A stretch of 64,000 nt of DNA, from sequence record OR980947; one strand, given 5' to 3'. This DNA is from Shigella phage Tf. Shown here in pieces: positions 1,578 through 52,467 of this stretch. The notes under the pieces are model-generated. The model was given only the letters and a program-made list of their open reading frames with translations. It was not told where the DNA came from and did no database searches. The position numbers were made by a program, and so were the translations under genes. Positions within the stretch are counted from its first letter, which is position 1, and each line of letters opens with the position of its first letter.

Positions 1578-1606
1578 TTGACAATGCCCCTTGACATTGG
1601 TAATGT
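1578..1606 (+). promoter_or_regulatory. sigma70-like promoter (TTGACA-17-TAATGT)
   Basis: aaaagtgTTGACAatgccccttgacattggTAATGT; consensus -35 with second TTGACA inside spacer. Confidence 0.5.
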
Positions 1607-1698
1607 TGTTCGAGGGGGTTTATCTTAAAGGGATTCACTTAAAAGATTCTTTATAGATAAGCTTAAAAAATTGCTTGCAATCAGATATCAAAACAAGT

Positions 1699-1766: not shown

Positions 1767-2297
1767 GTGAACAAGTTCAAAGCCATCAATTACATTCGTT
1801 CAAATGCTGTAATGTCTAAGCCTGTTAAAGATACCTATGAATTTCGTTGTAATGGGGTACACTTTGCAACCATTACCAAATCAGAAAACGGGGTTTATTA
1901 CGTCCATCGTCGTAATGTTGCAACCGTTGTAGTCCGTCACTTTATGCAAGCTGTAGCGGAACTATTACCGCTATTCTTAGAAATTTACTTGGATGAGTGT
2001 AAAAACGTTCACAATCACGTTAAAAACCTTTTAAATAGTTATAAAATGGCTTATGAGCGTTCTATCAAGTCATTGAACAAGTTTTATAAAGCCCCTGTAA
2101 ACACTGTTTCAATGGCTTACAATGTAAGCGGTGAGTTGGTTAGTCTCTTCGAAGTGGAAGAAATCGAACTATATAACTCACGTCCTAGCGGTTACTCTAA
2201 GACACTGGGAGAAGGCTTATCTTTCAATATCAAGAACTTAGAAAAAACTTTAAAAGATATTGAAAAAGATATTGACGAGACAATAAAAAATCTGTAA
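1767..2297 (+). CDS. hypothetical early protein (176 aa, GTG start)
   Basis: ORF; conserved upstream module with AGGAGA RBS; sigma70-like promoter at 1578. Confidence 0.5.
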   Translation: MNKFKAINYIRSNAVMSKPVKDTYEFRCNGVHFATITKSENGVYYVHRRNVATVVVRHFMQAVAELLPLFLEIYLDECKNVHNHVKNLLNSYKMAYERSIKSLNKFYKAPVNTVSMAYNVSGELVSLFEVEEIELYNSRPSGYSKTLGEGLSFNIKNLEKTLKDIEKDIDETIKNL

Positions 2298-2666: not shown

Positions 2667-2693
2667 AGCCCCTTTCCCATAGGGGCTTTTTTA
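2667..2693 (+). terminator. rho-independent terminator ending the rightward early block
   Basis: agcccctttcccataggggc + tttttt; preceded by second hairpin ggggctaaatagcccc at 2637-2652. Confidence 0.65.
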
Positions 2694-2699
2694 CGTCTT

Positions 2700-3400
2700 A
2701 TCAAATCCTATACAATCCTTTTCCTTTCCTTTCCAGAATCTATCCCACTGATTCGATAGAATCTATCTCGTACCTTAAAAGCAATAACTCTATAGCTTAC
2801 TCTATAGCCCCTTATCAAATCAACTTAAATAAAAGCCAATAACCCCAGAAAGGGGATGGCCCATTAATTGGTATTGTTACCAATCCCTAAAACGCTCTAT
2901 AAAGCTCTATAACAGCCTTATCAACCTAACTTAAGGGATTGCATTACCTCACCCTTAAAAGCCCTTTATAAAGCTTCTGAGAGCCTTAAAAGAATCTTAT
3001 AAGGGTGTAAGCTTATAGGCTGATTAGTATCTTGTGAATGGTTAAACAATCCCTTGATAGTCACTAAAAAGTATGTTATAGGGGCTTAAAAGTTGCTTAA
3101 AAGTAGCTTAAAAGTTACTTCAAAGTTACGTAAATGCTAGCCCCCTTAACATTTTCTTAACAATTTCTTAACAAACCCTACATAGTTATGCTTGTTAGGA
3201 ACTTGTCAGCACCTTGTTAAATCTTTGTTAAAACCATGTAAAAACCTTGTAAGAACCTTCGACATAGCCTTAAAAGCTCCTGTAAAGCCCTATAAAGAGC
3301 TATCCATACAGTTGAGGGGTAAATACTAGGGAGAGCCTTAAAAGAGCTTACAAGGGGCTATAGAGAGCTTTTAAGAGGTATGTTTAAGAAGTCACTAAGA
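2700..3400. repeat. array of CTTAAAAG / CTATAAAG / CTTATAAG-type short repeats in ORF-free region
   Basis: many copies, e.g. ttgcttaaaagtagcttaaaagttacttcaaag (11-bp phasing), gccttaaaagctcctgtaaagccctataaagagc. Confidence 0.7.
2865..2888. promoter_or_regulatory. palindrome-containing site taattggtattgttaccaatccct (copy 1), operator-like
   Basis: inverted repeat ttggta..taccaa; exact 24-nt duplicate at 3516-3539. Confidence 0.45.
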
Positions 3401-4260
3401 AGCAAAGGGAACGATAAGACCAGAGATAGTGACCATGTTAATAGCTTGTTAAAAAGATTAAACACTTGTTAGAGACTTGTTAATTATCTTAACAAAATAA
3501 CTCCTAAAAATTAACTAATTGGTATTGTTACCAATCCCTGTTAGCTCTTGTTAGTCATCTGTTAAGAAACTATAAAGACCATGTATCGACTGTTAAGAAC
3601 TTGTTACACCCTTGTTAGTTCTGTTAAGAATCTGTTAAGACCTTTGGAGAGATGTTAAGAGCTTGTGAGAACTGTTAAGAGATTGTTAAGGATATTTTAA
3701 AATTTTGCAAAGGGGATGTTAAGGAGCTGTTAAGGGCTACCAAGCAGATATACATCCTAATCAGATATTTTCAGTTCCTTCAAAGACCCTAAAAAATGAC
3801 TTGACAGTCCTATTTTATAAAAATTTTAAGATTCTGAATAATTACCTATACAGCCTTTTAAAAATACAGGTAGAAACAGGCTTATAAGATACCTTGTTAG
3901 TACCGTGTTAGACCTTGTGAGATAAGGTCTGTAAAGATATTCCTGTTAAGTTTGTTAAAACAGTCTATATAGAGGCTTAGTAAACCTAGTGAACACCTAT
4001 AGAGAGTGTCATAGGTAACATAATGGGTTACTGTTAAGTAACACAGTTAACCTAGAGATTAAGAGGTGTATAGAGGCTTCTAAGAGCGTATAGAGGGATG
4101 GTTAAGGTGATTGTATAGGTTGTTAAGAAGGCTTGTTAGAAGAGTGTTTAGAAGGGCTATACAGAGGGGGCTATTAAGACCACTAGATAGTTACTAAGAT
4201 ACTATATAGTACTATATAACTATATAGAGAGTAAGATTAAGAAGGTTGTTAAGAAGGATA
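3130..4260. repeat. array of (C)TTGTTA / TGTTAAG(A) repeats at about one helical turn spacing
   Basis: roughly 35-40 copies, e.g. cttgttacacccttgttagttctgttaagaatctgttaagacc and gatgttaagagcttgtgagaactgttaagagattgttaagg. Confidence 0.75.
3516..3539. promoter_or_regulatory. palindrome-containing site taattggtattgttaccaatccct (copy 2)
   Basis: exact duplicate of 2865-2888. Confidence 0.45.
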
Positions 4261-4344
4261 GATATTTTATTCACATATGATGGTGACCCAGAGGTTGGGA
4301 CAACCGATAAAATTTTATAAAAATATAAATTTCGTAAATTTTAC

Positions 4345-4374
4345 TCAATAAAAAGCCCCCGATTAAGGAGGCTC
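4345..4374 (-). terminator. rho-independent terminator (minus strand)
   Basis: minus-strand agcctccttaatcgggggct followed by ttttt. Confidence 0.5.
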
Positions 4375-4384
4375 TTAAGATATT

Positions 4385-15697: not shown

Positions 15698-15855
15698 CCT
15701 AATAAGATTTAAAGCCAAGCTTCATTCGGATGTTGCTTTGGTATACCGCGTGTATTGTTGTACACATTGATAAAACACCTAGTAGGTGTCACGGAGAAGA
15801 GATAATATCAAGCTCTCCAAAGGTTCTAGTCACCGGATTAAACAAGACTATGCAA

Positions 15856-15876
15856 AGACCTAAATAGGTCTTTTTA
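15856..15876 (+). terminator. terminator-like hairpin inside tRNA cluster
   Basis: agacctaaataggtct + ttttt. Confidence 0.45.
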
Positions 15877-15954
15877 GAGGGCTTCTAAGGTTATTACAGC
15901 TTGTTGTGGAACCTTGTTGCTTAGGTTCTTAGAAGTTCTCTAAAAAGATTTAAT

Positions 15955-16029
15955 GGGAGATTGATGGTAATTGGTAAACCTATCTCGCTTAGAACGAGAT
16001 GTTTGAGGGTTCGAATCCCTTGTCTCCTA
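15955..16029 (+). tRNA. tRNA with Leu-type anticodon TAG but short variable region
   Basis: acceptor gggagat/gtctcct, anticodon stem tctcg/cgaga loop ctTAGaa, T-loop GGTTCGAATCC, A73, CCA encoded; only 5 nt between anticodon and T arms. Confidence 0.5.
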
Positions 16030-16039
16030 CCAAATTAAT

Positions 16040-16112
16040 GCAGGTGTAGCAAAATGGTTATGCGGCTGACTCTTAATCAGTAAGACGATGGGTTCAATTC
16101 CCTCCACCTGTA
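16040..16112 (+). tRNA. tRNA-Lys (anticodon CTT)
   Basis: paralogue of the TTT tRNA at 14806; anticodon stem ctga/tcag loop ctCTTaa; T-loop GGTTCAATTCC; CCA encoded. Confidence 0.6.
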
Positions 16113-16121
16113 CCAGACATT

Positions 16122-16194
16122 GGGGATGTAGTTTACATGGTTAAAACATAAGTTTTGCAAACTTAAGTACAGGGTTCAATTCCCTGCTTCTCCA
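16122..16194 (+). tRNA. tRNA-Ala (anticodon TGC)
   Basis: D-stem gttt/aaac, anticodon stem taagt/actta loop ttTGCaa, T-stem cagg/cctg, CCA encoded. Confidence 0.7.
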
Positions 16195-16203
16195 CCAATT
16201 AGT

Positions 16204-16275
16204 GCATCCATAGTTTAAACGGGAAAATTACAGTCTTCCAAACTGAGGTTGAGGGTTCGATTCCCTCTGGATGCT
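16204..16275 (+). tRNA. tRNA-Gly (anticodon TCC)
   Basis: perfect acceptor gcatcca/tggatgc, anticodon loop ctTCCaa, T-loop GGTTCGATTCC, CCA encoded. Confidence 0.75.
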
Positions 16276-16284
16276 CCAAACAAT

Positions 16285-16358
16285 GCTGCTTTCGTATAAT
16301 TGGCTATTACACATCCCTTGTAAGGATGGAAATGCAGGTTCGAGTCCTGTGAGCAGCA
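16285..16358 (+). tRNA. tRNA-Thr (anticodon TGT)
   Basis: acceptor gctgctt/gagcagc, anticodon stem catcc/ggatg loop ctTGTaa, T-loop GGTTCGAGTCC, CCA encoded. Confidence 0.75.
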
Positions 16359-16456
16359 CCAATTCAGAGGTCAAGTGAAAGACCGCTGGTGTCAACTGAA
16401 GACCGTAACAAATTCCACGGAGTTGAGTTAGCGGCACAACTTCAGACCTCTTTCAC

Positions 16457-16528
16457 ACTCGCTTAGTTTATATGGTAAAACATCACCCTTACAAGATGAA
16501 GAAAAAGGTTCAAGTCCTTTAGTGAGTA
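16457..16528 (+). tRNA. tRNA-Val (anticodon TAC)
   Basis: acceptor actcgct/agtgagt, anticodon loop ctTACaa, T-loop GGTTCAAGTCC, CCA encoded. Confidence 0.7.
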
Positions 16529-16532
16529 CCAT

Positions 16533-16607
16533 GTTCCAGTATCCCAATTGGCAGAGGATGCAAGCTCAAACCTTGTATTAGTGACGGTTCGAATCCGTCT
16601 TGGAACA
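16533..16607 (+). tRNA. tRNA with Leu-type anticodon CAA but short variable region
   Basis: acceptor gttccag/ttggaac, Leu-like D-loop aattggcaga, anticodon stem gcaag/cttgt loop ctCAAac, T-loop GGTTCGAATCC, A73, CCA encoded. Confidence 0.55.
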
Positions 16608-16629
16608 CCAATTTTAAGAGGCTATTTAG

Positions 16630-17187
16630 ATGAGATACTTAAAGTATGCTTCATGGATTTTCTTAGCTTTGTTAGAGCCATTCGCAGCAATCTTAGCAGT
16701 TATCTTAGCACCTTTTGTAGTTCCATTCTATAGTGAGAAGAAAGGACATCTACCTTTCGGATTCAGATGGATGGAGACATATGACAACCCAATTGATGGT
16801 GATGAAGGTCACGTTAAAAGATGGGCTAAGATTAGAAAGATTGGTAATCTTGGTGTCTATTTGCAGAGAGTTGGATGGCTCTGGAGAAACAAAGCTTATA
16901 ACTTCTCTTACCATGTGTTAGGAAGAGACGTAAAAGATGTTACTAAGTGGAAAGGTAATATCAACGTGAGTTCTGACCCTGAAGATAATCAGACAGGTTA
17001 TCTCCTAATGTGGAACAGTAATGCTTGGGGATTATTCGCTTTTGTCCCATCAATTAAAATCTTTGGTAAACAATTCTACTGGAGAATTTATGTTGGATGG
17101 AAACTAAAAAGTGTTGTCCCAGAAGAAAGAGCATTCTCAAGGGAAAGAGTTATGTTGGCATTCTTTATTCATCCACTGAGAAAGTAA
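16630..17187 (+). CDS. hypothetical membrane protein encoded inside the tRNA cluster
   Basis: ORF 185 aa; N-terminal hydrophobic segment (IFLALLEPFAAILAVILAPFVVPF); Trp/Tyr-rich. Confidence 0.45.
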   Translation: MRYLKYASWIFLALLEPFAAILAVILAPFVVPFYSEKKGHLPFGFRWMETYDNPIDGDEGHVKRWAKIRKIGNLGVYLQRVGWLWRNKAYNFSYHVLGRDVKDVTKWKGNINVSSDPEDNQTGYLLMWNSNAWGLFAFVPSIKIFGKQFYWRIYVGWKLKSVVPEERAFSRERVMLAFFIHPLRK

Positions 17188-17195
17188 AGATTTAA

Positions 17196-17268
17196 AGGGG
17201 ATTAGTTTACAAGGTTAAAACCTCGGTCTTTGAAATCGAAGAAGTTGGTTCAATTCCAACATCCCCCG
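17196..17268 (+). tRNA. tRNA-Gln (anticodon TTG)
   Basis: anticodon stem tcggt/atcga loop ctTTGaa, T-stem gttgg/ccaac, CCA encoded. Confidence 0.7.
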
Positions 17269-17273
17269 CCAAT

Positions 17274-17349
17274 GCTCCATTACTCCAATTGGCAGAGAGG
17301 CCAGACTTAAAATCTGTGTTATGTATCGGTTCGAATCCGATATGGAGTA
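17274..17349 (+). tRNA. tRNA with Leu-type anticodon TAA but short variable region
   Basis: paralogue of 16533-16607 (shared aattggcaga D-loop); anticodon stem caga/tctg loop ctTAAaa; T-loop GGTTCGAATCC; A73; CCA encoded. Confidence 0.5.
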
Positions 17350-17357
17350 CCAAATTT

Positions 17358-17430
17358 AGCGGTATAGCATAACTGGCAATGCAGCAGTCTCTGAAGCTGT
17401 CTTATTAAGGTTCAAATCCTTATGCCGCTG
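17358..17430 (+). tRNA. tRNA-Gln (anticodon CTG)
   Basis: D-stem gcat/atgc, anticodon stem gcagt/gctgt loop ctCTGaa, T-loop GGTTCAAATCC, CCA encoded. Confidence 0.7.
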
Positions 17431-17434
17431 CCAC

Positions 17435-17464
17435 TTCTAAGGGTTCTTACGAGAGTCTTTAAAT
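17435..17464 (+). promoter_or_regulatory. conserved motif cttctaagGGTTCTTACGAGagTCTTTAAAtg (copy 3)
   Basis: just upstream of tRNA-His. Confidence 0.35.
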
Positions 17465-17537
17465 GTGGCCTTATCATAAATGGTAATGACCCATGCTGTG
17501 AACATGGTCTATACGGGTTCAAATCCCGTAGGTCACC
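17465..17537 (+). tRNA. tRNA-His (anticodon GTG)
   Basis: D-stem tcat/atga, anticodon stem ccatg/catgg loop ctGTGaa, T-loop GGTTCAAATCC, C73, CCA encoded. Confidence 0.75.
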
Positions 17538-17545
17538 CCAATTTA

Positions 17546-17620
17546 TAGTCCAAGTAGCTTATATGGTTAAAGCGCGTGTCTGAAAAACATGAGAAGAGGG
17601 TTCAAATCCCACTGGACTAC
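17546..17620 (+). tRNA. tRNA-Phe (anticodon GAA)
   Basis: perfect acceptor tagtcca/tggacta, anticodon stem cgtgt/acatg loop ctGAAaa, T-loop GGTTCAAATCC; D region slightly irregular. Confidence 0.6.
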
Positions 17621-17638
17621 CAATTTCAAAGGTGCTTA

Positions 17639-18373
17639 ATGAAAGAGATGACAGGACAAGGTAAGGAGATTTTTAATCTCTTAAAAACCGGTAAAGGGTT
17701 CTCTAACCCGCTTATTACTGGTGCAGCAGTTCTCGGTGGAACCGTAGCTGCTTCTACATCACTTGTAAGCTCTATTAGTTCTGTAACAGACCCTACAATG
17801 AAGGAGAAACTTGTTGCTGCTGGACTTACAACAGCCCTTCTAAACAGCTTTACAACAAGCCTGACAAGTACTACAGCAACTACTAAGACCCTAACAGACT
17901 ATGGTCAAAAGTCTATTGATGAGTTTTCATCACGTATGCAGGTAGCAAAGGGATACTCCAATGTTATGGGTGCAGCAGGAGAACAAGTTGGTTGTACACC
18001 ATTCAGTGGTATCATGGGTGTTGCTACAGAGTATGGTCAAAAAGCTATTGACATGATGAACAGTGCACTAGATAGTGTTAACGATGTATTAAGTGACTTA
18101 CAAGACGCTATTGACAAGGGTCTTGATACTGTTTCTGATTTAGCTAACCAAGCTGTCAGTAAGATTAATGAAGGTATCTCGAAGATTACAGCTTATGCAG
18201 ATGAAGTTGTGCAGATGATTGAAGAAGAAGCTGCCCTTATTGCAGAGTACCTTAAAACGAATATCAATGGGTTCTTAGCAGGTATCTTACCAGACTGGTT
18301 TGATGATGCTTGTAAAACTGGTGTAATTGACACTATTGCAACACCAGAAATGAAGAACGCATTACAGAAATAA
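17639..18373 (+). CDS. hypothetical protein, Ser/Thr/Ala-rich (start trimmed to avoid tRNA-Phe)
   Basis: ORF-track ORF 17576-18373 overlaps tRNA-Phe; in-frame ATG at 17639 preceded by aaaggtg. Confidence 0.5.
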   Translation: MKEMTGQGKEIFNLLKTGKGFSNPLITGAAVLGGTVAASTSLVSSISSVTDPTMKEKLVAAGLTTALLNSFTTSLTSTTATTKTLTDYGQKSIDEFSSRMQVAKGYSNVMGAAGEQVGCTPFSGIMGVATEYGQKAIDMMNSALDSVNDVLSDLQDAIDKGLDTVSDLANQAVSKINEGISKITAYADEVVQMIEEEAALIAEYLKTNINGFLAGILPDWFDDACKTGVIDTIATPEMKNALQK

Positions 18374-18375
18374 AT

Positions 18376-18465
18376 GGAAGATTAACCCTAAAAGGTAAGG
18401 GAGCAGTTTGCTAAACTGCCAGTAGCTGAGAAATCGGTGTACCAGTTCAAGTCTGGTATCTTCCT
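18376..18465 (+). tRNA. tRNA-Ser (anticodon GCT), long variable arm
   Basis: 90 nt; acceptor ggaagat/atcttcc, anticodon stem gcagt/actgc loop ttGCTaa, long variable arm, T-arm accag-TTCAAGT-ctggt, CCA encoded. Confidence 0.7.
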
Positions 18466-18472
18466 CCAATTT

Positions 18473-18545
18473 GAATCCGTGACAGAAACGGCTATGTGCC
18501 TGTCTGCAAAACAGGTTTATAAGGGTTCGAGTCCCTTCGGATTCT
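18473..18545 (+). tRNA. tRNA-Cys (anticodon GCA)
   Basis: acceptor gaatccg/cggattc, anticodon stem cctgt/acagg loop ctGCAaa, T-arm aaggg-TTCGAGT-ccctt, CCA encoded. Confidence 0.7.
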
Positions 18546-18770: not shown

Positions 18771-18971
18771 ATGAGTGAGAACGTTTATAAAGAACTTTAT
18801 GAAGCTAACAAGAAGTTAGAGTTTATGCAGAATACTATCATGGCAATTGCAGACAGATTATCTGTAGCAACAGGTATTGATATTAAAGAAGCATCTATGG
18901 ATGCACTTCTTGATGCTGTTGATGCAAAGTTCGAAGTTAAGAAAGAAGAGACTGCTACAGACTCTGAATAA
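18771..18971 (+). CDS. hypothetical small protein upstream of terminase (66 aa)
   Basis: ORF with GGAGAA RBS; position immediately before terL. Confidence 0.4.
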   Translation: MSENVYKELYEANKKLEFMQNTIMAIADRLSVATGIDIKEASMDALLDAVDAKFEVKKEETATDSE

Positions 18972-18977
18972 TTCTAT

Positions 18978-20594
18978 TTGCGGAGGTGCTTAATGGACTT
19001 AAATGCTATTAAGCAGAAGCGAGTGGAAGATGTTAGGAAAGTCCTAGCTGGAGAGTTGGGGCTTTCTGATGAAGTAAAAGAAATTATTAAATCATTCGGT
19101 AAAGACCCCTCTAAATTCCTTCCAACTCAAATTCTGACTTTATTAAGATACACACCAGACCAAGTTCGCCTCATCTTTAAATTGATGACTGATAAGAACT
19201 ATGTAGCCCCTCAACCGGGTTCTCAAGAGGTCTTTTTAAATACTAATGCTGACTTGGTTCTCTATGGTGGTGCTGCTGGTGCTGGTAAGACTGCCGCATT
19301 GTTAATGGACTCTTTAAGATTTATTGAAGACCCTAACTATAATGCTGTATATTTCCGTCGAAATACAACACAGTTACAAGGTGGTTTATGGCCTGCTGCA
19401 AAGAAACTATTTGGTAAGTTTGGTGGGGTTCCTCACGAGCAGAAGATGACTATCACATTCCCTTCTGGGGCAACTATCAAGTTTACCTACCTAGAACTTG
19501 AAAAGCACGCTGAAGGTCATCAGGGTATTGAATACTCAGCTATCTACTTTGACGAAGGTACACACTTCTCTGCTTCACAGATTTCATACCTACAAACCCG
19601 TCTGCGTTCTGGTGCTGAAGGTGATTCATACATGAAGATTTCTATGAACCCAGATAGAGACCACTTTATTTACGATTGGGTAGAACCATTCTTAGATGAA
19701 GAAGGTTACCCAGACCCTGAAAAGTGTGGTCGTATTCGTTGGTATGTTATGAATGATGGTGTGATGGTTTCTGATTGGGAGAGAGACAAGATTCTTGAAA
19801 TGTTCCCTCTTGAGATTCCTCAGACATACACCTTCATCTCTGGTACGATTGATGATAACCCAATTCTTGACTTCTTAGAACCTAAATATCGTGGTAAGTT
19901 GGAAAACAACACACCTGTAAACGTTGCAAGACTTCGTTTCGGTAACTGGAAGGCTCGCGCAGAAGGTTCAAACTATTGGCAAAGACAATGGTGTGAGATT
20001 GTTGATTCACTCCCAGAAGATGTGTTTGATGTCAGAGCATGGGACTTAGCAGCAACTTTACCATCTGAGGTTAACCCTAATCCAGACTGGACAGCAGGTG
20101 TTAAGATGGGTAAATCTAAAAAAGACGGTTGCTATTATATCATTGATGTAGTAAGATTTAGAGATAGACCCTCTGGAGTCGAAACACAAATTAATTTGAC
20201 TGCTGAAAGTGACGGTAAGCGAACTGGTATTTTTATCCCTCAAGACCCAGGCGCTGCTGGTAAATCCTACGCGACATCCCTCATCAGGAAACTTGCCGAG
20301 AAAGGCTATCGTGCAAGAGCTAAACCAACAAATAAAGACAAAGTTACCCGCTTTGCGGGATTTTCTGCTGCTTCTGAGGCTGGACTTGTAAAAGTCTTGA
20401 GAGGTAGTTGGAATGAAGCTTACTTTCAAGAACTTGAAGGCTTTTGTGGTGACGGTAAAACTAAAGATGACCAAGTGGATGCTACCAGTGATGCTTTCAA
20501 CAGTCTTAACGAAGTTAAATTATTCAAGCCACCATCAATGGGTGCTCACACAGACTTAGTGAGAGGAAACCCATATGAGGGGCTTAGACGTTGA
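18978..20594 (+). CDS. terL: terminase large subunit
   Basis: Walker A-like LYGGAAGAGKTAAL, size 538 aa, followed by portal-sized gene. Confidence 0.85.
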   Translation: MRRCLMDLNAIKQKRVEDVRKVLAGELGLSDEVKEIIKSFGKDPSKFLPTQILTLLRYTPDQVRLIFKLMTDKNYVAPQPGSQEVFLNTNADLVLYGGAAGAGKTAALLMDSLRFIEDPNYNAVYFRRNTTQLQGGLWPAAKKLFGKFGGVPHEQKMTITFPSGATIKFTYLELEKHAEGHQGIEYSAIYFDEGTHFSASQISYLQTRLRSGAEGDSYMKISMNPDRDHFIYDWVEPFLDEEGYPDPEKCGRIRWYVMNDGVMVSDWERDKILEMFPLEIPQTYTFISGTIDDNPILDFLEPKYRGKLENNTPVNVARLRFGNWKARAEGSNYWQRQWCEIVDSLPEDVFDVRAWDLAATLPSEVNPNPDWTAGVKMGKSKKDGCYYIIDVVRFRDRPSGVETQINLTAESDGKRTGIFIPQDPGAAGKSYATSLIRKLAEKGYRARAKPTNKDKVTRFAGFSAASEAGLVKVLRGSWNEAYFQELEGFCGDGKTKDDQVDATSDAFNSLNEVKLFKPPSMGAHTDLVRGNPYEGLRR

Positions 20595-39463: not shown

Positions 39464-41824
39464 ATGGCAGATTACAAATTGAGTCAATTAAACTCAATCG
39501 ACACAATTCGTTCAGAAGACCTATTGCACATCAGAGTTAAGAAAAGACCTGAAATGTTGGGTGACGAAGACCGTCGAATGACCTATCAAGACTTCTTAGC
39601 ATCTTTTAAACTAGAAAGATTTGTTCAGATTGCTGGTAGCACTATGACGGGTGACTTAGGAATTGTTAAGTTACTTTATGGTGGTAAGGCAGTCTTTGAC
39701 CCAACAGGCTCTTCTGAGATTAATATTGGTGATGTTTTAAAGACTTTTAAAATCAACGCAAATGGTCTTAAGTTAACCGTTGCAGATGCTTCAAGGTCTG
39801 CAACTGTTTATCATACTCTTAATAAACCAAGCCCTAATGAACTTGGGATGAGAACCAATGAAGAGAACGATGCAAGGTATGCAAAACTATCTGCAAATAA
39901 CATCTTTACATCCCAACAAACTATCCAAGCAAATGGTGAAGCTATTAGGTTAAAAAACTCTTCTGAGAACTCACCGTTGTATATCAGAGGTCAGGATAGT
40001 GCTGGTGAGAATAGATGGTATATCGGTAATGGTTCAGGGGGTGATAATGTTACTATCCGCAACCACAAGACAGACTGTGAAGTTATTCTATCTAGTGTCG
40101 TGGCTATCAATAAAACATTAAGCATCACGGGTCAAGTCAAACCTTCTGACTTCTCTAACTTAGATGCTAGATATTTCACTCAGACAGTCGCTAATCAGAG
40201 ATTTGCACAGTTAGCTGGCAATAACACCTTTACAGGTGCTAACACATTTAGGACTATGAGTGTTATTTCAAATGCTGCTGCCATCACACTGCAATGTGCA
40301 TCAGCAAACGAATCCCTGTATCTACTTGCAAAAGATTATGAAGGTGGAAACTTATGGTATCTTGGTAAAGATAGTTCAGGTGCTGGTGTAACTATCTACA
40401 ACTATACCACTAACACCTCTTTGTTCTTAGATGCTGCTGGGGTATCAGCAAATAAAAATGTCAGAATCACTGGACAAGTTCAACCTTCAGATTGGACTAA
40501 CATTGACTCTAGATACATTCCAGTAGCTACTTTGAGCAATCTTGCTAAAATTAATGTGTCTAACACTTTCACAAATGTGCAGACTATTGTATCAAATAAT
40601 GAAGGTGTAGTATTAAAGAACTTAACACAGGGACAGCCGCAATATATCCGTGGTGTTGATACTGCGAACGTATCTAGGTGGTGGGTAGGTGTAGGTGATG
40701 CAAATTCTACTGATGTAGCCTTAAACAACAGCTTCTCTGGGACTCAAATTACTCTTATGACTTCAGCGATTAAGGCTAATAAGAATCTAACCATTACTGG
40801 TCAAGTACAACCTTCTGATTGGTCTAACTTAGATGCTAGATATTTCTTGAAAACAAAACTATTAAACCAATCTTTAATGACAAGGACAGCTAATAGACTG
40901 GATGACCCATCATCATTCAACAAAGATTATTCAGGGTTTGTAAGAAATAATAACATAGAGCAGGGTCTGAAAGATTTAGCCATCCATGTAGCACATGCTG
41001 CTGGTATTGCTCATGCCAGAGGTATTGCTTTTGAATATGGGTCTACAGGTCTTAATGTCTTCACATATGCCTATGGCAAAAATGGTGACTATGCCGGAGA
41101 AGCACAGATTTATACAACTGCTTTTAAACCAACCCCTTCAGAAATTGGTGCATACACTAAAGCTGAAACTGACCAGAAGATTGCAGAAGCGATTAGTGAC
41201 TCTACAGACCTTAATAAAATCTATCCAGTAGGTATTGTAACGTGGTTTAACAGTAATGTTAACCCTAATACAGCACTTCCTGGTCTAACTTGGACGTACC
41301 TGAATAATGGTGTTGGTAGAACTATTAGAATTGCAGCAGCAAACGGTTCAGATGTTGCTACAACTGGTGGTTCAGACTCTGTAACGTTGTCTGTTGGTAA
41401 CTTACCTTCACACACGCATAGTTTCTCTGGAACGACTTCTTGGTTTGACTATGGAACTAAGTACACAGACGGTCAGGGTGCTCACGACCATGACAGAGGT
41501 AACATGGAAATCTCTGGTGACTTTGGTTTCTTCAGAAGTGATGCAAATAACTTTTATACAGCAAGTGGGGCATTCGCTATCTCAGGTTCACAAGCCTCTA
41601 GGGGTTTTACTGGCTCTAAGTTCACTTATGGTACACCTGTCAACTTCTACGCATCAAGAACTTGGACAGGGAGAACAAGCTGGGTAGGTGCTCATGCACA
41701 TGGTGTAGGTATTGGTGCTCACAACCATACGGTAAGTGGTAACACAGGTGTCACAGGTTCTGGTTCAGCATTTAGTGTCACTAACCAATTCTATAAGTTA
41801 ATGGCTTGGGTAAGAACTGCTTAA
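39464..41824 (+). CDS. long tail fibre protein with internal repeats and His-x-His motifs
   Basis: 786 aa; three copies of ...ITGQV(K/Q)PSD(F/W)(S/T)N(L/I)D(A/S)RY...; C-terminal HTHS, HDHD, HAHG, HNHT motifs; conserved C-terminal ...AFSV...WVRTA. Confidence 0.7.
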   Translation: MADYKLSQLNSIDTIRSEDLLHIRVKKRPEMLGDEDRRMTYQDFLASFKLERFVQIAGSTMTGDLGIVKLLYGGKAVFDPTGSSEINIGDVLKTFKINANGLKLTVADASRSATVYHTLNKPSPNELGMRTNEENDARYAKLSANNIFTSQQTIQANGEAIRLKNSSENSPLYIRGQDSAGENRWYIGNGSGGDNVTIRNHKTDCEVILSSVVAINKTLSITGQVKPSDFSNLDARYFTQTVANQRFAQLAGNNTFTGANTFRTMSVISNAAAITLQCASANESLYLLAKDYEGGNLWYLGKDSSGAGVTIYNYTTNTSLFLDAAGVSANKNVRITGQVQPSDWTNIDSRYIPVATLSNLAKINVSNTFTNVQTIVSNNEGVVLKNLTQGQPQYIRGVDTANVSRWWVGVGDANSTDVALNNSFSGTQITLMTSAIKANKNLTITGQVQPSDWSNLDARYFLKTKLLNQSLMTRTANRLDDPSSFNKDYSGFVRNNNIEQGLKDLAIHVAHAAGIAHARGIAFEYGSTGLNVFTYAYGKNGDYAGEAQIYTTAFKPTPSEIGAYTKAETDQKIAEAISDSTDLNKIYPVGIVTWFNSNVNPNTALPGLTWTYLNNGVGRTIRIAAANGSDVATTGGSDSVTLSVGNLPSHTHSFSGTTSWFDYGTKYTDGQGAHDHDRGNMEISGDFGFFRSDANNFYTASGAFAISGSQASRGFTGSKFTYGTPVNFYASRTWTGRTSWVGAHAHGVGIGAHNHTVSGNTGVTGSGSAFSVTNQFYKLMAWVRTA

Positions 41825-49757: not shown

Positions 49758-50068
49758 CATCTGGTCAATACACTCGCAAGGTGTACCAGTTCTCTTATGA
49801 ACTTCTCCGCATTTCTACGGAGTGTCGGACTATATCACGTAGTAGTAATACTACCGTTGCACTTGGGAATGGTCATTAGCTTACCACCCTACTCTACTCA
49901 GTTCATACATTAAGTATGCTTTTCGATAGTCTCTGAACGTTTCTCTGTTAGGAATCTCTATAGTTATGTTATTTGCTTTAGGAGTCCTAACAGAGACTTC
50001 GCTGCTGATTACCATATCTTTACAGACTTAGGCTTCCAGCAATTCACAACGTTTTACATGCGCCACTG
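49758..50068 (-). ncRNA. group I self-splicing intron interrupting the DNA polymerase gene
   Basis: on the minus strand: exon 1 ends in U pairing with G of internal guide gcgcat (P1), terminal G before exon 2, and P/Q/R/S-like core elements aattgctggaagcc, aatcagcagc, gttcagagacta, gatatagtcc in canonical order; no long ORF inside. Confidence 0.75.
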
Positions 50069-52244
50069 ACGCATAGATACCATTCTTAGCCTTCTTGCGG
50101 CCTTTACTAATCTCATGAAGAAGATTCTCATCCTGAGTAGCTCGACAAGTCAAGATGTCCTGCTCATCATTCAAGCTAAAGTAAATACTGTTCAGTGTAT
50201 GTGCATCAGTCCCTGAATAGACAACGTACAGGTCATTCTCAGAGTCATAGCGCAGGTACTTATCAATCTCTGGGTTGAGGTACTCATCAAAATGTTTACA
50301 GTAATAACGTCCATCTTCTTGACGAATAAACTCAATCTCTTCTTTACCTTGCGTTACCGCTTTGGTGAACTCTTTATCACCCATAAAGTTACAAAGTAGA
50401 ACTAACTGGGCTGAGTTCATATCAACAGAGACTACGTTGGTTCCCTCTTCACAAATCCACACCTCCCTCATAGGTGCTCCATAGACAGCAGCACCAGACG
50501 GTACGTTTACAATACCATATTGTGTCATTCGTCCAGTTGAAGTACCAAACACCATTGCACCAGCACTAAGGCGACCATCAGGACGAATCTGGTTCAACCA
50601 ACCTTTTTCACCATCCTTTGAGTTCTCAATAGTTCTGCGTCGGTGCATCAAAGTATAGTACTTAGCAATCTTCTGTCCAAGCTCACCTTCAATCGTATCA
50701 TAAGAAGACTCAGTAAGTTTTGGTGAAGTACGGATTAAGCAAGGTTCAAGCAAATCTGTGTACTTCTTCACAGACCAGTTATGCTCAATGTACTGTACAC
50801 CTTCATGTTCAACATAGCTCAAACCACACCGCTCAACCATTTCCTGCCACTTAGGATGTTTTGTAATCATCTTTTTATTGTCTTTGAAACGACAAACTTT
50901 GACAGGGCGACCGTCTGAGTCTTTCTTGTAGTTCCAGTCATCTGGAATCCAACCAACTGATTTCAAGTAGTCTTTAACAACTGCTACCTGAGTCATACGA
51001 GAAACTTCAAAATCAATTGGTGTATATGGTGCATCAATCAAACCTGTGTAGCGACTTGACTCAAGTTCAAAGTGGTTAACAACGTGACTGTTATAGTACT
51101 TCACAGTTTTAACTGTTTTTACTGGCTTCCAGTCTTTGCATTTCTTACCAATCTTTGCATTCAACTCATTGCAAATTGCACGAGCATCCTTCATTGCTAC
51201 AAAGCCTTCCTTGTACTCTTCACCAGTTACAGAGTTGGTTGGTGTATAGCAATTTCTCTTTTCAATGTTAAAAATCTTTGTAGTTGGCTTACCAAATGGC
51301 TTGATTTCATATGTCTGCATCTCACCGTTACGTACCTGCTGACGATACTTTGTCTTAGGGTACTTGGTAATTCTTTTCAGTCCATCTGCATGACCAAATG
51401 TTTCAACATACTCATTCCAAGCTTTTGCAAACTCTTCTCCAGTGACTTTACCTTTGGTCTTAATAGTTGGAGGAAGATGTGGTTCAACTTCTGAAGCAAG
51501 CTCATTAGTCAACTTGTCAAGTTCCTTTACATGGAACTCCATAAGTTCTTTATCAGCTTTCCAACCATTGATAGCCTGTTGACTCATCCAGAAAGATGTT
51601 TCTTTAGCTCGCATGTAGGTTTCATAAGTGTCTATGCCACACTTCTTAAGCTTGAGATACTCATTATCAAGTGCCCGTTTAGTTTTGGCGTTAATACGGA
51701 TATCTTCTACAACACGAGTGAAGATTTCTGCATTCCACACACCCCAATGCTCAATCTCTGGTTTACGAACACCAACACGAGCACCCCATGCAGCCAAACC
51801 ATGAGCACCTTTATAACCCTTTGGAGTTGGTCTATCCATCCACTGAACACGAGACTGGATAAGAGAGTCCTGAAAGAAATTACTCCACGGTTTACACTTT
51901 GGGTTATCAAAGTTCCATAAATCAGGTGCAATGTGATTGAAAACCCACCAGTCATAACCGAGACCGTTATGGATGCAAAGACGTTTTGCCTTTAACGCAA
52001 ATTCAACGCCTTCACGCAAACCACCTTTAATGTACTTGGTATACTTGTGACCGAGGATAGGCTCATCTGTAAAGACCCATACAGGCGGCTCTTCATCGTC
52101 AGATTTATAGTCTGCGAAAGCCATTACGTGCACTTTAGTGAACTCAAGGAGTAAACCATCAGTTTCTGTATCACCAACCAAATGTAAGTTTTTAAAATCT
52201 ACGTTTTCCATTTCTACTCCCTCTAAATCATTAACCTCATACAT
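50069..52244 (-). CDS. DNA polymerase (family A), exon 1: 3'-5' exonuclease and polymerase domains up to first half of motif B
   Basis: Exo I motif VGDTETDGL; motif A-like VSVDMNSAQL; ORF-track ORF ends RKKAKNGIYAS... with stop 12 codons into the intron. Confidence 0.85.
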
Positions 52245-52270
52245 TACTGCAAAAAATTATAAAAAGCAAG

Positions 52271-52299
52271 TTGACAATGCACTTGACAAGGTGTTAATC
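52271..52299 (+). promoter_or_regulatory. sigma70-like promoter for rightward replication operon
   Basis: aaaaagcaagTTGACAatgcacttgacaaggtgTTAATC. Confidence 0.45.
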
Positions 52300-52467
52300 T
52301 TTGCGAAGTGGGTTTTTACTTAAAAGGTTACTTAACAGTTTAACTATACAGATACTTTAAAACTCTTAAAAGATTATTTAAAAGCTTTTAAAAAGCTTTA
52401 AAGTATAACGTATAGAATACGTTAAGATAAAAGATTAAAACTTAATAGTTACTTAAAAGAGGCTTAC

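What the first reader, a model, noticed from the sequence alone, without database searches (positions are those of the whole stretch)
2700..4384. 1.7 kb ORF-free region packed with two families of short phased repeats
Between the convergent early (+) and leftward (-) gene blocks there is no ORF of 60 aa or more in any frame over about 1.7 kb. The sequence is dominated by (i) CTTAAAAG/CTATAAAG/CTTATAAG units (2700-3400, some as 11-bp tandem units) and (ii) about 35-40 copies of (C)TTGTTA / TGTTAAGA (3130-4260), often spaced 10-11 bp apart, i.e. on one face of the helix. Such phased arrays are typical of cooperative protein-binding loci (replication-origin iterons, partition/centromere-like sites, packaging-site repeats or transcription-factor sinks). 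Which it is cannot be decided from sequence. The TGCTTAAA-containing units also loosely resemble T4 MotA-box middle-promoter elements, a weaker possibility.
Basis: seen in the sequence. Interest (0 to 1): 0.75.

Follow-up and report, generated by a model that had tools for sequence, protein, structure and literature searches.

The report
Phage genome ends with phased repeats
The gene-free 1.7 kb stretch is where this Felix O1-like phage's linear chromosome begins and ends: it holds the ~600 bp terminal repeat, which is built from short motifs lined up on one face of the DNA helix, probably as a landing pad for the DNA-packaging machinery.

Summary
Window 2700-4384 has no ORF above 45 aa. It holds 31 TGTTA (3.2 expected) and 8 CTTAAAAG (0.2 expected), and it is the only long tract in the window with a 10-11 bp period.

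The window is a Felixounavirus (Felix O1-like myovirus). Three independent GenBank relatives carry exact direct terminal repeats (DTR) of 580, 613 and 694 bp. Their two boundaries map to the same window positions, 3140 and 3741. Published PhageTerm results give 581 and 613 bp for other relatives. So the region is the concatemer junction: left flank 2700-3139, a 602 bp DTR, and right flank 3742-4384.

Both boundary sequences are nearly invariant. TGTTA cores are better conserved than their spacers (0.97 against about 0.85). They keep one helical phase (period 10.4-10.45 bp) across the DTR. Indels come in ~11 bp multiples, and the two flanks are mirror images. Erwinia phages of another genus keep the TGTTAAGA arrays at their termini.

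The MotA-box idea failed its test, and no support was found for origin or partition readings. That the arrays bind a packaging protein is inferred; no small terminase subunit was found.

The closest analogue is the T7 terminal repeat with its flanking short-repeat arrays. Interest is moderate.

The parts
2667..2687 (+). Rho-independent terminator closing the rightward (early) gene block
   Evidence: stem-loop AGCCCCTTTCCCATAGGGGCT followed by a T-run. A homologous terminator is annotated in AYO145A.
2700..3139 (.). Left flank of the junction. In the virion this is the unique DNA just inside the right-end copy of the terminal repeat. It is C-rich and carries 8 CTTAAAAG/CTATAAAG-type units and 4 CTCTATA units.
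   Evidence: motif counts; GC skew -0.21. (11-bp tandem array at 3084-3134, 4.5 copies).
3123..3139 (.). Near-invariant sequence just outside the left repeat boundary, AAGTTACGTAAATGCTA. It contains the palindrome TTACGTAA.
   Evidence: Nearly invariant across 18 aligned genomes (only the two Mooglevirus and the Suspvirus sequences differ, at 1-3 positions) and identical in 7 metagenome contigs. Partly conserved in an Erwinia Kolesnikvirus.
3140..3741 (.). Direct terminal repeat (DTR) equivalent, 602 bp. It is present once here, as in a concatemer junction, and would be duplicated at both virion ends.
   Evidence: Exact terminal duplications of 580, 613 and 694 bp in PP886229, ON868915 and MN994503 begin and end at the positions homologous to 3140 and 3741. 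PhageTerm DTRs of 613 and 581 bp are published for relatives (PMC6454146; PMC8303462).
3145..3174 (.). Three CTTAACA units (TGTTAAG in reverse orientation) at 11-bp spacing just inside the left boundary. They make the two ends of the DTR inverted copies of each other.
   Evidence: Inverted repeats I1/I2, 3143-3175 against 3704-3736 (73%) and 3146-3173 against 3673-3700 (86%).
3193..3732 (.). Forward TGTTA(A/G) array, 21 copies, all on one helical face (period 10.45 bp, R 0.79)
   Evidence: Core conservation is 0.97 against 0.80-0.87 for adjacent positions.
3742..3756 (.). Near-invariant sequence just outside the right repeat boundary, AAGCAGATATACATC
   Evidence: only position 3755 varies, T or C. 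AAGTAGATATACA is conserved in the Erwinia phage. This boundary lies in the only stretch of the region that blastn aligns to Kolesnikvirus (window 3628-3754).
3742..4384 (.). Right flank of the junction. In the virion this is the unique DNA just inside the left-end copy of the repeat. It is G-rich, with 8 TGTTA and 5 TATAGAG units, and is a mirror image of the left flank.
   Evidence: counts; GC skew +0.23. (left and right flanks share 86 inverted 7-mers against 29 direct; chance 33+/-9). The best-conserved part is 3801-4000, at 0.96 identity.
4356..4370 (-). Terminator closing the leftward gene block
   Evidence: Homologous terminators are annotated in AYO145A and Moogle.
2865..2887 (.). 23-bp palindromic cassette TAATTGGTATTGTTACCAATCCC (copy 1), present or absent among relatives
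   Evidence: (D12)
3516..3538 (.). The same 23-bp palindromic cassette (copy 2), inside the DTR. NBSal004 has three copies, which accounts for its longer DTR.
4016..4047 (.). 32-bp presence/absence cassette TAACATAATGGGTTACTGTTAAGTAACACAG, with a TGTTAAG in the loop of a 6-bp inverted repeat
18978..20594 (+). Large terminase subunit gene, the enzyme expected to cut at the DTR boundaries
   Evidence: PHROG 979, E 1e-233. Pfam Terminase_6N and Terminase_6C.

Best explanation
The region is the genome terminus, or concatemer junction, of a Felix O1-like phage that packages DNA with fixed ends and a short direct terminal repeat.

Window 3140-3741 (602 bp) is the repeat. 2700-3139 and 3742-4384 are the non-coding flanks that sit next to it at the right and left virion ends. 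The site lies where two convergent transcription units terminate, so cutting there interrupts no gene.

Shown:
- the position of the termini, by homology to relatives whose ends are sequenced
- the near-invariant boundary sequences
- the one-face (10.4-10.45 bp) phasing of about 30 TGTTA(A/G) units
- stronger conservation of these cores than of their spacers
- gain and loss of units in ~11-bp steps
- the mirror symmetry of the flanks
- conservation of the TGTTAAGA arrays in a different genus

Inferred:
- In replicating concatemers the terminase (TerL at 18978-20594 plus an unidentified recognition factor) cuts at the two boundary sites, which are partial inverted copies (GCTA|GCCCCCTTAACA and TGTTAAGGGCTACC|). 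The repeat between them is then duplicated by DNA synthesis, as in T7.
- The phased arrays are a cooperative, one-face binding platform for the recognition factor. This factor could be a small terminase subunit or another phage protein that binds head-to-tail. It would bend or wrap about 600-1100 bp of DNA and so mark and position the cuts.
For: Termini:
- Records PP886229, PP952733 and MN994503 start, and ON868915 ends, at the position homologous to window 3140.
- Exact terminal duplications of 580, 613 and 694 bp map to 3140 and 3741.
- PhageTerm DTRs are published for Felix O1-like phages: 613 bp, 581 bp, and DTRs stated for PP886229 and PP952733.
- The Erwinia phage record PP079184 starts with the 8 bases TCCGATCT, which I read from my own knowledge as an Illumina adapter tail, directly joined to the homologous end sequence.
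- Felix O1 itself was predicted to have short terminal repeats.

Constraint on the sequence:
- The boundaries are nearly invariant in 18 genomes and in metagenome contigs.
- The region is as conserved as, or more conserved than, the flanking genes.
- Motif cores are more conserved than non-motif positions; 0 of 2000 circular shifts reached the observed difference.
- Long-range helical phase is kept in all relatives although DTR lengths range from 559 to 694 bp.
- Of 41 indels of 9 nt or more, 32 have lengths of 10-12, 22-24 or 32-33 nt.
- TGTTAAG occurs 12 times and GTTAAGA 15 times in the otherwise unalignable Erwinia phage junction.

Geometry: the two DTR ends are inverted copies and the two flanks are mirror images.

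Analogy: T7 has arrays of CCTAAAG-type units directly beside its terminal repeat on both sides.
Against: The termini are inferred by homology. The window holds one copy of the repeat and no reads were available for this phage.

No protein that binds the arrays is identified. No small terminase subunit was recognised near terL or in a Pharokka-annotated relative. The genes next to the region have no known function.

The cut positions are not symmetric within the shared boundary motif. They lie 6 and 8 nt from the first TTAACA.

CTTAAAAG-type units also cluster near early promoters elsewhere in the window (1580-1670 and 52270-52460), so that family may have a transcriptional role instead.

In the Erwinia phage the long-range phase signal is not significant.

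11-bp indels are also what replication slippage alone would produce.
Confidence: 0.55

Rival explanations
1. The arrays have no function of their own. Only the boundary sequences matter for terminase. The repeats are by-products of slippage and unequal recombination in a spacer that tolerates them. The spacer could also act as sacrificial buffer DNA protecting genes from exonucleases at the chromosome ends.
For: Indels come in whole 11-bp units, as slippage predicts. DTR length varies freely from 559 to 694 bp. Small cassettes come and go. About 1.0-1.2 kb of non-coding DNA lies between each virion end and the first gene.
Against: TGTTA cores are conserved at 0.97 against 0.80-0.87 for adjacent bases. 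A single helical phase is held over about 57 turns, whereas pure 11-bp tandem duplication would drift out of phase. The same motif is kept in a genus whose junction no longer aligns. The region is at least as conserved as neighbouring genes.
Confidence: 0.2
2. The region is, or also contains, the origin of replication. The short repeats would act as iterons for a phage initiator.
For: There are dense phased repeats, AT-rich stretches (3790-3870, 4270-4345) and a local minimum of cumulative GC skew near 3000-3200.
Against: There is only one 8/9 DnaA-box match (0.45 expected). No initiator or helicase-loader gene is recognisable next to the region. The units are 5-8 bp cores at one-turn spacing rather than 17-22 bp iterons. 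The skew change follows motif orientation and gene direction.
Confidence: 0.1
3. The arrays are binding sites for a transcription regulator or a host nucleoid protein. They would act as a sink or a silencer between the two convergent transcription units, unrelated to packaging.
For: CTTAAAAG-type units also cluster just downstream of tandem TTGACA promoters at 1580-1670 and 52270-52460. TTAACA, the reverse complement of TGTTAA, matches the -35 hexamer in 5 of 6 positions.
Against: Promoter-like sites are not above chance (10 against 7.4+/-2.8). TGTTAAG shows no clustering elsewhere in the window. The arrays start and end at the repeat boundaries and their orientation flips there, which ties them to the termini.
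Confidence: 0.1
4. The units are T4-type MotA-box middle promoters.
For: Only a loose resemblance of TGCTTAAA to the MotA box.
Against: There is no TGCTT[TC]A in the region on either strand, and only 4 full MotA-type promoter patterns in the whole window, none of them here. Felix O1 is reported to encode no T4-like modifiers of RNA polymerase specificity.
Confidence: 0.01

Closest known systems
Concatemer junction of phage T7/T3: short direct terminal repeat with the flanking short-repeat arrays (called SRL and SRR in my recollection) and the pac sites
   Same: Both have fixed genome ends with a short exact terminal repeat in non-coding DNA. The repeat is present once per junction and duplicated during packaging (general mechanism: PMC10438801). 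Both have arrays of 7-8 bp units directly beside and inside the repeat on both sides. In T7, CCTAAAG/CTTAAAG/CATAAAG units lie at 175-340 and CCTATAGAG/CCTAAAGAG units at 39600-39740. Some unit sequences look alike (T7 CTTAAAG and CTATAGAG against CTTAAAAG and CTATAGAG here).
   Different: The phages are unrelated (a myovirus with a T4-type TerL, no phage RNA polymerase). The repeat is 602 bp against 160 bp and the junction is 1.7 kb. The T7 units are spaced 13 bp apart, so they are not in helical phase, whereas these hold a 10.4-10.45 bp phase over hundreds of bp. The dominant motif here is TGTTA(A/G). From my own knowledge, the function of the T7 arrays is also unknown, so the analogy gives no mechanism.
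Terminase recognition sites built from repeated elements: lambda cosB (R sites plus an IHF site), SPP1 pacL/pacR, and P1 pac (hexamer repeats flanking the cut)
   Same: Repeated short motifs flank a terminase cleavage site, and DNA bending or wrapping by a small terminase subunit is part of recognition (from my own knowledge of these systems).
   Different: Those sites have 3-7 repeats over 100-250 bp and a known small subunit encoded next to terL. Here there are about 40 units over more than 1 kb, two cut sites 600 bp apart, and no recognisable small subunit. Binding was not tested.
Tandem direct-repeat boxes of winged-helix regulators (PhoB Pho boxes, OmpR sites)
   Same: A 7-bp direct repeat plus a 4-bp spacer gives an 11-bp period with head-to-tail, one-face binding. 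CTGTTAAGAATCTGTTAAGA resembles the Pho box CTGTCATAAAACTGTCATA. This is recalled from memory and is a lead only.
   Different: CTGTCA occurs essentially not at all in the region (sequence). No OmpR/PhoB-type protein was identified in the phage. Regulator sites have 2-6 units, not about 40.
Iteron arrays of plasmid and phage replication origins
   Same: Clustered direct repeats in non-coding DNA, some of them phased.
   Different: Unit size and spacing differ. There is no DnaA-box cluster and no adjacent initiator gene. The region coincides with the genome termini.

Membership tests
Short-DTR (T7-type) fixed genome termini | The same exact sequence is present at both ends of the virion DNA | tested here: met
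   Met in relatives, not in this phage directly. PP886229, ON868915 and MN994503 carry exact 580, 613 and 694 bp terminal duplications. The window holds the homologous 602 bp once.
Short-DTR (T7-type) fixed genome termini | The ends are fixed and not circularly permuted | tested here: met
   Three independent records share identical boundaries on both sides. PhageTerm calls of the DTR class are published for Felix O1-like phages. An 8-base sequence read as an adapter remnant abuts the homologous end in PP079184. Reads for this phage itself were not available.
Short-DTR (T7-type) fixed genome termini | The junction carries one repeat copy between the unique ends in replicative or assembled DNA | tested here: met
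   The window, 14 GenBank records and several metagenome contigs read through left flank, one repeat and right flank.
Short-DTR (T7-type) fixed genome termini | The repeat is duplicated by staggered nicks plus strand-displacement synthesis | not testable with these tools
   Needs analysis of packaging intermediates.
Terminase recognition site with small-subunit binding repeats (cosB or pac type) | Repeated motifs next to the cleavage site | tested here: met
   TGTTA and CTTAACA units abut both boundaries.
Terminase recognition site with small-subunit binding repeats (cosB or pac type) | An identifiable small terminase subunit that binds them | tested here: not met
   Upstream of terL there is a tRNA array, a 244-aa protein of unknown function and a 66-aa protein. 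No TerS family matched and none is annotated in the first 45 kb (including the terL neighbourhood) of a Pharokka-annotated relative. Binding itself is not testable here.
Replication-origin iterons | DnaA boxes or an AT-rich unwinding element together with an adjacent initiator gene | tested here: not met
   One 8/9 DnaA-like site against 0.45 expected. The flanking genes have no known function. AT-rich stretches exist, but that is not specific.
Replication-origin iterons | Replication starts here | not testable with these tools
   Needs marker-frequency or 2D-gel data.
T4 MotA-dependent middle promoters | A MotA box (a/t)(a/t)TGCTT(t/c)A 11-13 bp upstream of a TAnnnT -10 element | tested here: not met
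   No TGCTT[TC]A in 2700-4384 on either strand.
T4 MotA-dependent middle promoters | MotA and AsiA genes in the phage | not tested
   From the literature only: Felix O1 apparently encodes no T4-like modifiers of RNA polymerase specificity (PMC3185647).
Partition (centromere-like) site | Adjacent parA/parB-type genes and a plasmid-like lifestyle | tested here: not met
   No Pfam or PHROG hit of that kind in the flanking genes. This is a virulent phage with a linear genome.
Structured non-coding RNA | A match to a known RNA family or significant folding | tested here: not met
   No Rfam match at E<0.2. Folding z-scores for 3742-4010 are -2.2 (+ strand) and -0.9 (- strand).

The most novel reading that the evidence does not exclude
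The terminal repeat of Felix O1-like phages is a telomere-like nucleoprotein domain. About 30-40 TGTTA sites on one helical face would nucleate a head-to-tail filament or wrap of an unidentified phage protein. This structure would define where the two terminase cuts fall and would therefore define the repeat itself. The long-unexplained short-repeat arrays beside the T7 terminal repeat would be the same kind of device. The small palindromic cassettes that carry a TGTTA in their loop would be mobile extra binding sites for that protein.
Probability: 0.25. Interest if true: 0.65.

Novelty: new variant of a known kind. Interest (0 to 1): 0.45.

Why it matters
It fixes the physical ends of the chromosome for a large and widely used phage group. 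Felix O1-like phages are used for Salmonella and E. coli typing, biocontrol and therapy. Most of their GenBank records are opened arbitrarily and leave this region unannotated or filled with spurious tiny ORFs.

How fixed-end phages recognise and duplicate their terminal repeats is poorly understood outside T7. A 600 bp repeat built almost entirely from one helically phased motif, conserved across genera, offers a tractable cis element. It can be used to find the recognition protein and to test whether repeat arrays beside terminal repeats have a general role in packaging.

Knowing the junction also matters for engineering these phages and for building packaging or transduction vectors.

Tried and rejected
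- Promoter scan: sigma-70-like sites are not above chance, so the region is not a promoter cluster.
- Rfam at gathering and at permissive thresholds: nothing credible.
- RNA folding of the best-conserved block 3742-4010: at most a weak signal.
- Single-strand DNA folding of both boundaries: no hairpin beyond chance, so there is no evidence for a hairpin-based cutting signal.
- DnaA and MotA box searches: negative.
- Search for the binding protein: PHROG and Pfam on ten flanking genes plus TerL, and on the two ORFs upstream of terL, gave only unknown-function families. A Pharokka-annotated relative lists no small terminase subunit in its first 45 kb.
- IMG/VR scan with the 16-mer TTGGTATTGTTACCAA: returned mostly unrelated contigs, and only about seven loci were usable.
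- Exact-protein contig look-ups for three window proteins: nothing found. Look-ups via homologues gave contigs that read through the junction or break inside the repeat, which says nothing about physical ends.
- Literature searches: found no description of this region's repeats. The Felix O1 genome paper does not discuss it. A search for the T7 unit CCTAAAG was useless.
- A curvature model was considered but not run, because I could only recall the parameters from memory.
Full report
**1. What the window is**

The 1.8 kb around the finding matches 255 phage records, and 171 of them cover most of it. Nearly all are Felix O1-like myoviruses (Felixounavirus, Suspvirus, Mooglevirus; best identity 90.9%). 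A more sensitive search adds Erwinia Kolesnikvirus phages, which match only window 3628-3754. In the numbering of the Felix O1 genome paper the region lies between ORF23 and ORF24. This is where the transcription units 97-131/1-23 and 40-24 converge (PMC3185647). That paper lists other direct repeats and suspects 'short terminal repeats', but it does not discuss this region.

**2.

No ORF above 45 aa lies inside 2700-4384, and the coding 3-base periodicity is absent.

- Against 500 dinucleotide-preserving shuffles, TGTTA occurs 31 times against 3.2 expected, TGTTAAG 13 against 0.3, CTTAAAAG 8 against 0.2, the wider CTTAAAAG family 16 against 1.0, and TATAGAG 6 against 0.4.
- Tandem Repeats Finder reports 11-bp arrays at 3084-3134, 3145-3174 and 3211-3259.
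- Base autocorrelation peaks at lags 10-11, 20-22, 31-32 and 43-44, with z up to 9.7.
- No other extended tract of this kind exists in the 64 kb window.
- All 31 TGTTA positions fit one period of 10.40 bp over 1.4 kb (R 0.62). The 21 inside 3140-3741 fit 10.45 bp (R 0.79). None of 1000 random sets reached these values.

The sites therefore sit on one face of B-DNA over about 57 turns. This is more than a run of 11-bp tandem copies would give.

**3. What it is: the genome terminus**

In the sensitive search, several records start or end inside the region, and four of them do so at the same homologous base, window 3140. I fetched both ends of three records from different laboratories.

| Record | Phage | Exact terminal duplication | Maps to window |
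|---|---|---|---|
| PP886229 | vB_EcoM_E9 | 580 bp | 3140 and 3741 |
| ON868915 | SPJ41 | 613 bp | 3140 and 3741 |
| MN994503 | NBSal004 | 694 bp | 3140 and 3741 |

In every case the first base maps to window 3140 (GCCCCCTTAACA...) and the last base to window 3741 (...GTTAAGGGCTACC).

- The authors of PP886229 report direct terminal repeats from PhageTerm (PMC11737134).
- Other Felix O1-like phages have published PhageTerm repeats of 613 bp (Ro111lw, PMC6454146) and 581 bp (Pr103Blw, PMC8303462).
- The Erwinia phage record PP079184 begins with TCCGATCT, followed directly by GCCACTTTTACATTTCGTTAACA. From my own knowledge TCCGATCT is the tail of an Illumina adapter. The following sequence is the homologue of the left end, and the record has a 418 bp terminal duplication.

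Window 3140-3741 (602 bp) is therefore the direct terminal repeat. It is present once, as in a concatemer junction or a collapsed assembly. 2700-3139 is the unique DNA next to the right-end copy, and 3742-4384 is the unique DNA next to the left-end copy. Terminators close the two gene blocks at 2667-2687 (+) and 4356-4370 (-).

**4. Anatomy and constraint**

I aligned 18 genomes.

- Boundaries. The sequences AAGTTACGTAAATGCTA|GCCCCCTTAACATTTTCTTAACAATTTCTTAACAA and TGTTAAGGGCTACC|AAGCAGATATACATC are nearly invariant across three genera and in uncultured metagenome contigs.
- Overall conservation. The region is as conserved as, or more conserved than, the flanking genes. It peaks at 0.96 identity in 3801-4000.
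- Motif cores. TGTTA cores score 0.97 against 0.80-0.87 for adjacent bases. The excess of motif over non-motif positions was reached by 0 of 2000 circular shifts.
- Indels. Of 41 indels of 9 nt or more, 32 have lengths of 10-12, 22-24 or 32-33 nt. Units are gained and lost whole, mostly not in multiples of three. This also argues against a hidden gene.
- Repeat length. Predicted repeat lengths range from 559 to 694 bp, yet the 10.1-10.5 bp phase is kept in every relative.
- Orientation. Three CTTAACA units sit just inside the left boundary. All other TGTTA units point the other way up to the right boundary. The two ends of the repeat, and hence the two virion ends, are therefore partial inverted copies (I1/I2).
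- Flanks. The flanks are mirror images: 4 CTCTATA on the left, 5 TATAGAG on the right and none in the opposite sense. GC skew is -0.21 on the left and +0.23 on the right. The flanks share 86 inverted 7-mers against 29 direct, with 33+/-9 expected by chance.
- Other genus. In the Erwinia phage the equivalent 1.45 kb non-coding junction no longer aligns, apart from the stretch ending at the right boundary. It still carries 12 TGTTAAG and 15 GTTAAGA. Its left flank uses CTTCTAAG where this phage uses CTTAAAAG.

**5. How it most likely works**

Shown: the termini, the boundaries, and selection on a helically phased motif array tied to those boundaries.

Inferred: during packaging the terminase (TerL, 18978-20594) cuts at the two boundary sites of a concatemer junction. 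The 600 bp between them is copied so that each chromosome receives a full repeat. This is the general scheme for T7-type phages (PMC10438801). The arrays would be a cooperative one-face platform for the recognition factor, which bends or wraps the DNA and marks the cut sites.

I rate the terminus assignment at about 0.9 and the platform role at about 0.45. The weak points are these:
- No small terminase subunit or other DNA-binding candidate was found.
- The cuts are not symmetric within the shared boundary motif.
- CTTAAAAG-type units also occur near early promoters.
- Slippage alone gives 11-bp indels.

**6. Rivals**

- Functionless slippage products in a buffer spacer (0.2). This is contradicted by core conservation, long-range phase and cross-genus retention of the motif.
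- Replication origin (0.1). There is no DnaA cluster and no initiator gene nearby, but it is not excluded.
- Regulator or nucleoid-protein sink (0.1). Promoter-like sites are at chance level and the arrays are tied to the boundaries.
- MotA boxes (0.01). The defining sequence is absent.
- A structured RNA is not supported.

**7. Comparison with known systems**

The closest analogue is the T7 junction. I read T7's ends directly. CCTAAAG, CTTAAAG and CATAAAG units follow the left repeat at 13-bp spacing (175-340). CCTATAGAG and CCTAAAGAG units precede the right repeat. The architecture is the same, with a short repeat bracketed by arrays of 7-8 bp units, and some units look alike.

The differences are the phage lineage, the size (602 bp repeat, 1.7 kb junction), the dominant TGTTA motif and the strict helical phasing. 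From my own knowledge, the role of the T7 arrays is also unknown.

Lambda cosB, SPP1 pac and P1 pac share the idea of repeated motifs beside a terminase cut. They are much smaller and have a known small subunit. The 7+4 bp direct-repeat geometry recalls PhoB and OmpR boxes. This is a lead from memory only.

**8. Novelty and verdict**

Direct terminal repeats in Felix O1-like phages are already in the literature as PhageTerm results. I found no description of their position in this region, of the boundary sequences, or of the phased array architecture.

I file it as a new variant of a known kind: a T7-type terminal region with flanking repeat arrays. Interest is moderate (0.45). It is a solid and useful explanation rather than a surprise, with an open and testable question about what reads the array.

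Noticed in passing
window 2865-2887, 3516-3538, 4016-4047; relatives in /scratch alignment (L022, L044, L057, L138, L140, L007/L008): Small (22-33 bp) palindromic cassettes are present or absent in a patchy, non-phylogenetic pattern. In the window they occur only in the terminal non-coding region. ATTGGTATTGTTACCAATCCC occurs at six or more different insertion points in different genomes, once in reverse orientation, often inside a TTAACA or TGTTAAG unit. It is tandemly triplicated in NBSal004. A second family carries GATTC/GAATC palindromes. They could be tiny mobile or recombining modules.
   Followed up: partly
window 1580-1670 and 52270-52460: Two intergenic regions have a tandem promoter-like pair (TTGACAATGCnCTTGACA) followed by clusters of CTTAAAAG-type units. 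This resembles the 57-bp repeats noted in the Felix O1 genome paper. The CTTAAAAG family may therefore be a regulatory motif shared between early promoters and the terminal left flank.
   Followed up: partly
window 49805-50080 (-): Group I catalytic intron (Rfam RF00028, 62.9 bits, full-length match) inside the phage genome. The host gene was not examined.
   Followed up: no
window 13703-18545 (+): Array of 22 tRNA genes that ends about 430 bp upstream of the large terminase gene. Only a 66-aa ORF (18771-18971) and a 244-aa protein of unknown function (17639-18373) lie where a small terminase subunit might be expected.
   Followed up: partly
GenBank GU169904.1 (hit H2), positions 135330-137094: A 147 kb record named 'Staphylococcus phage SA1' contains this Felix O1-type junction at 89% identity. 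The record is probably chimeric or contaminated.
   Followed up: no
L009 (PP079184.1) positions 1-8: The deposited Erwinia phage genome begins with TCCGATCT, which I take to be the tail of an Illumina adapter left on the sequence. It incidentally marks a true physical DNA end.
   Followed up: yes
window 1767-2297 (+); L150-L152: The precomputed table lists PF26821 (Phage_T4_Y16F) for the 176-aa neighbour in metagenome relatives. My Pfam scan of the window's own copy found nothing at E<=0.01.
   Followed up: no
GenBank records PP886229, LC473039, MW006475: Several relatives annotate 30-55 aa 'hypothetical proteins' inside the junction. These are not conserved as reading frames, because indels of 11, 22 and 23 nt cut across them. 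They are most likely gene-caller artefacts.
   Followed up: partly
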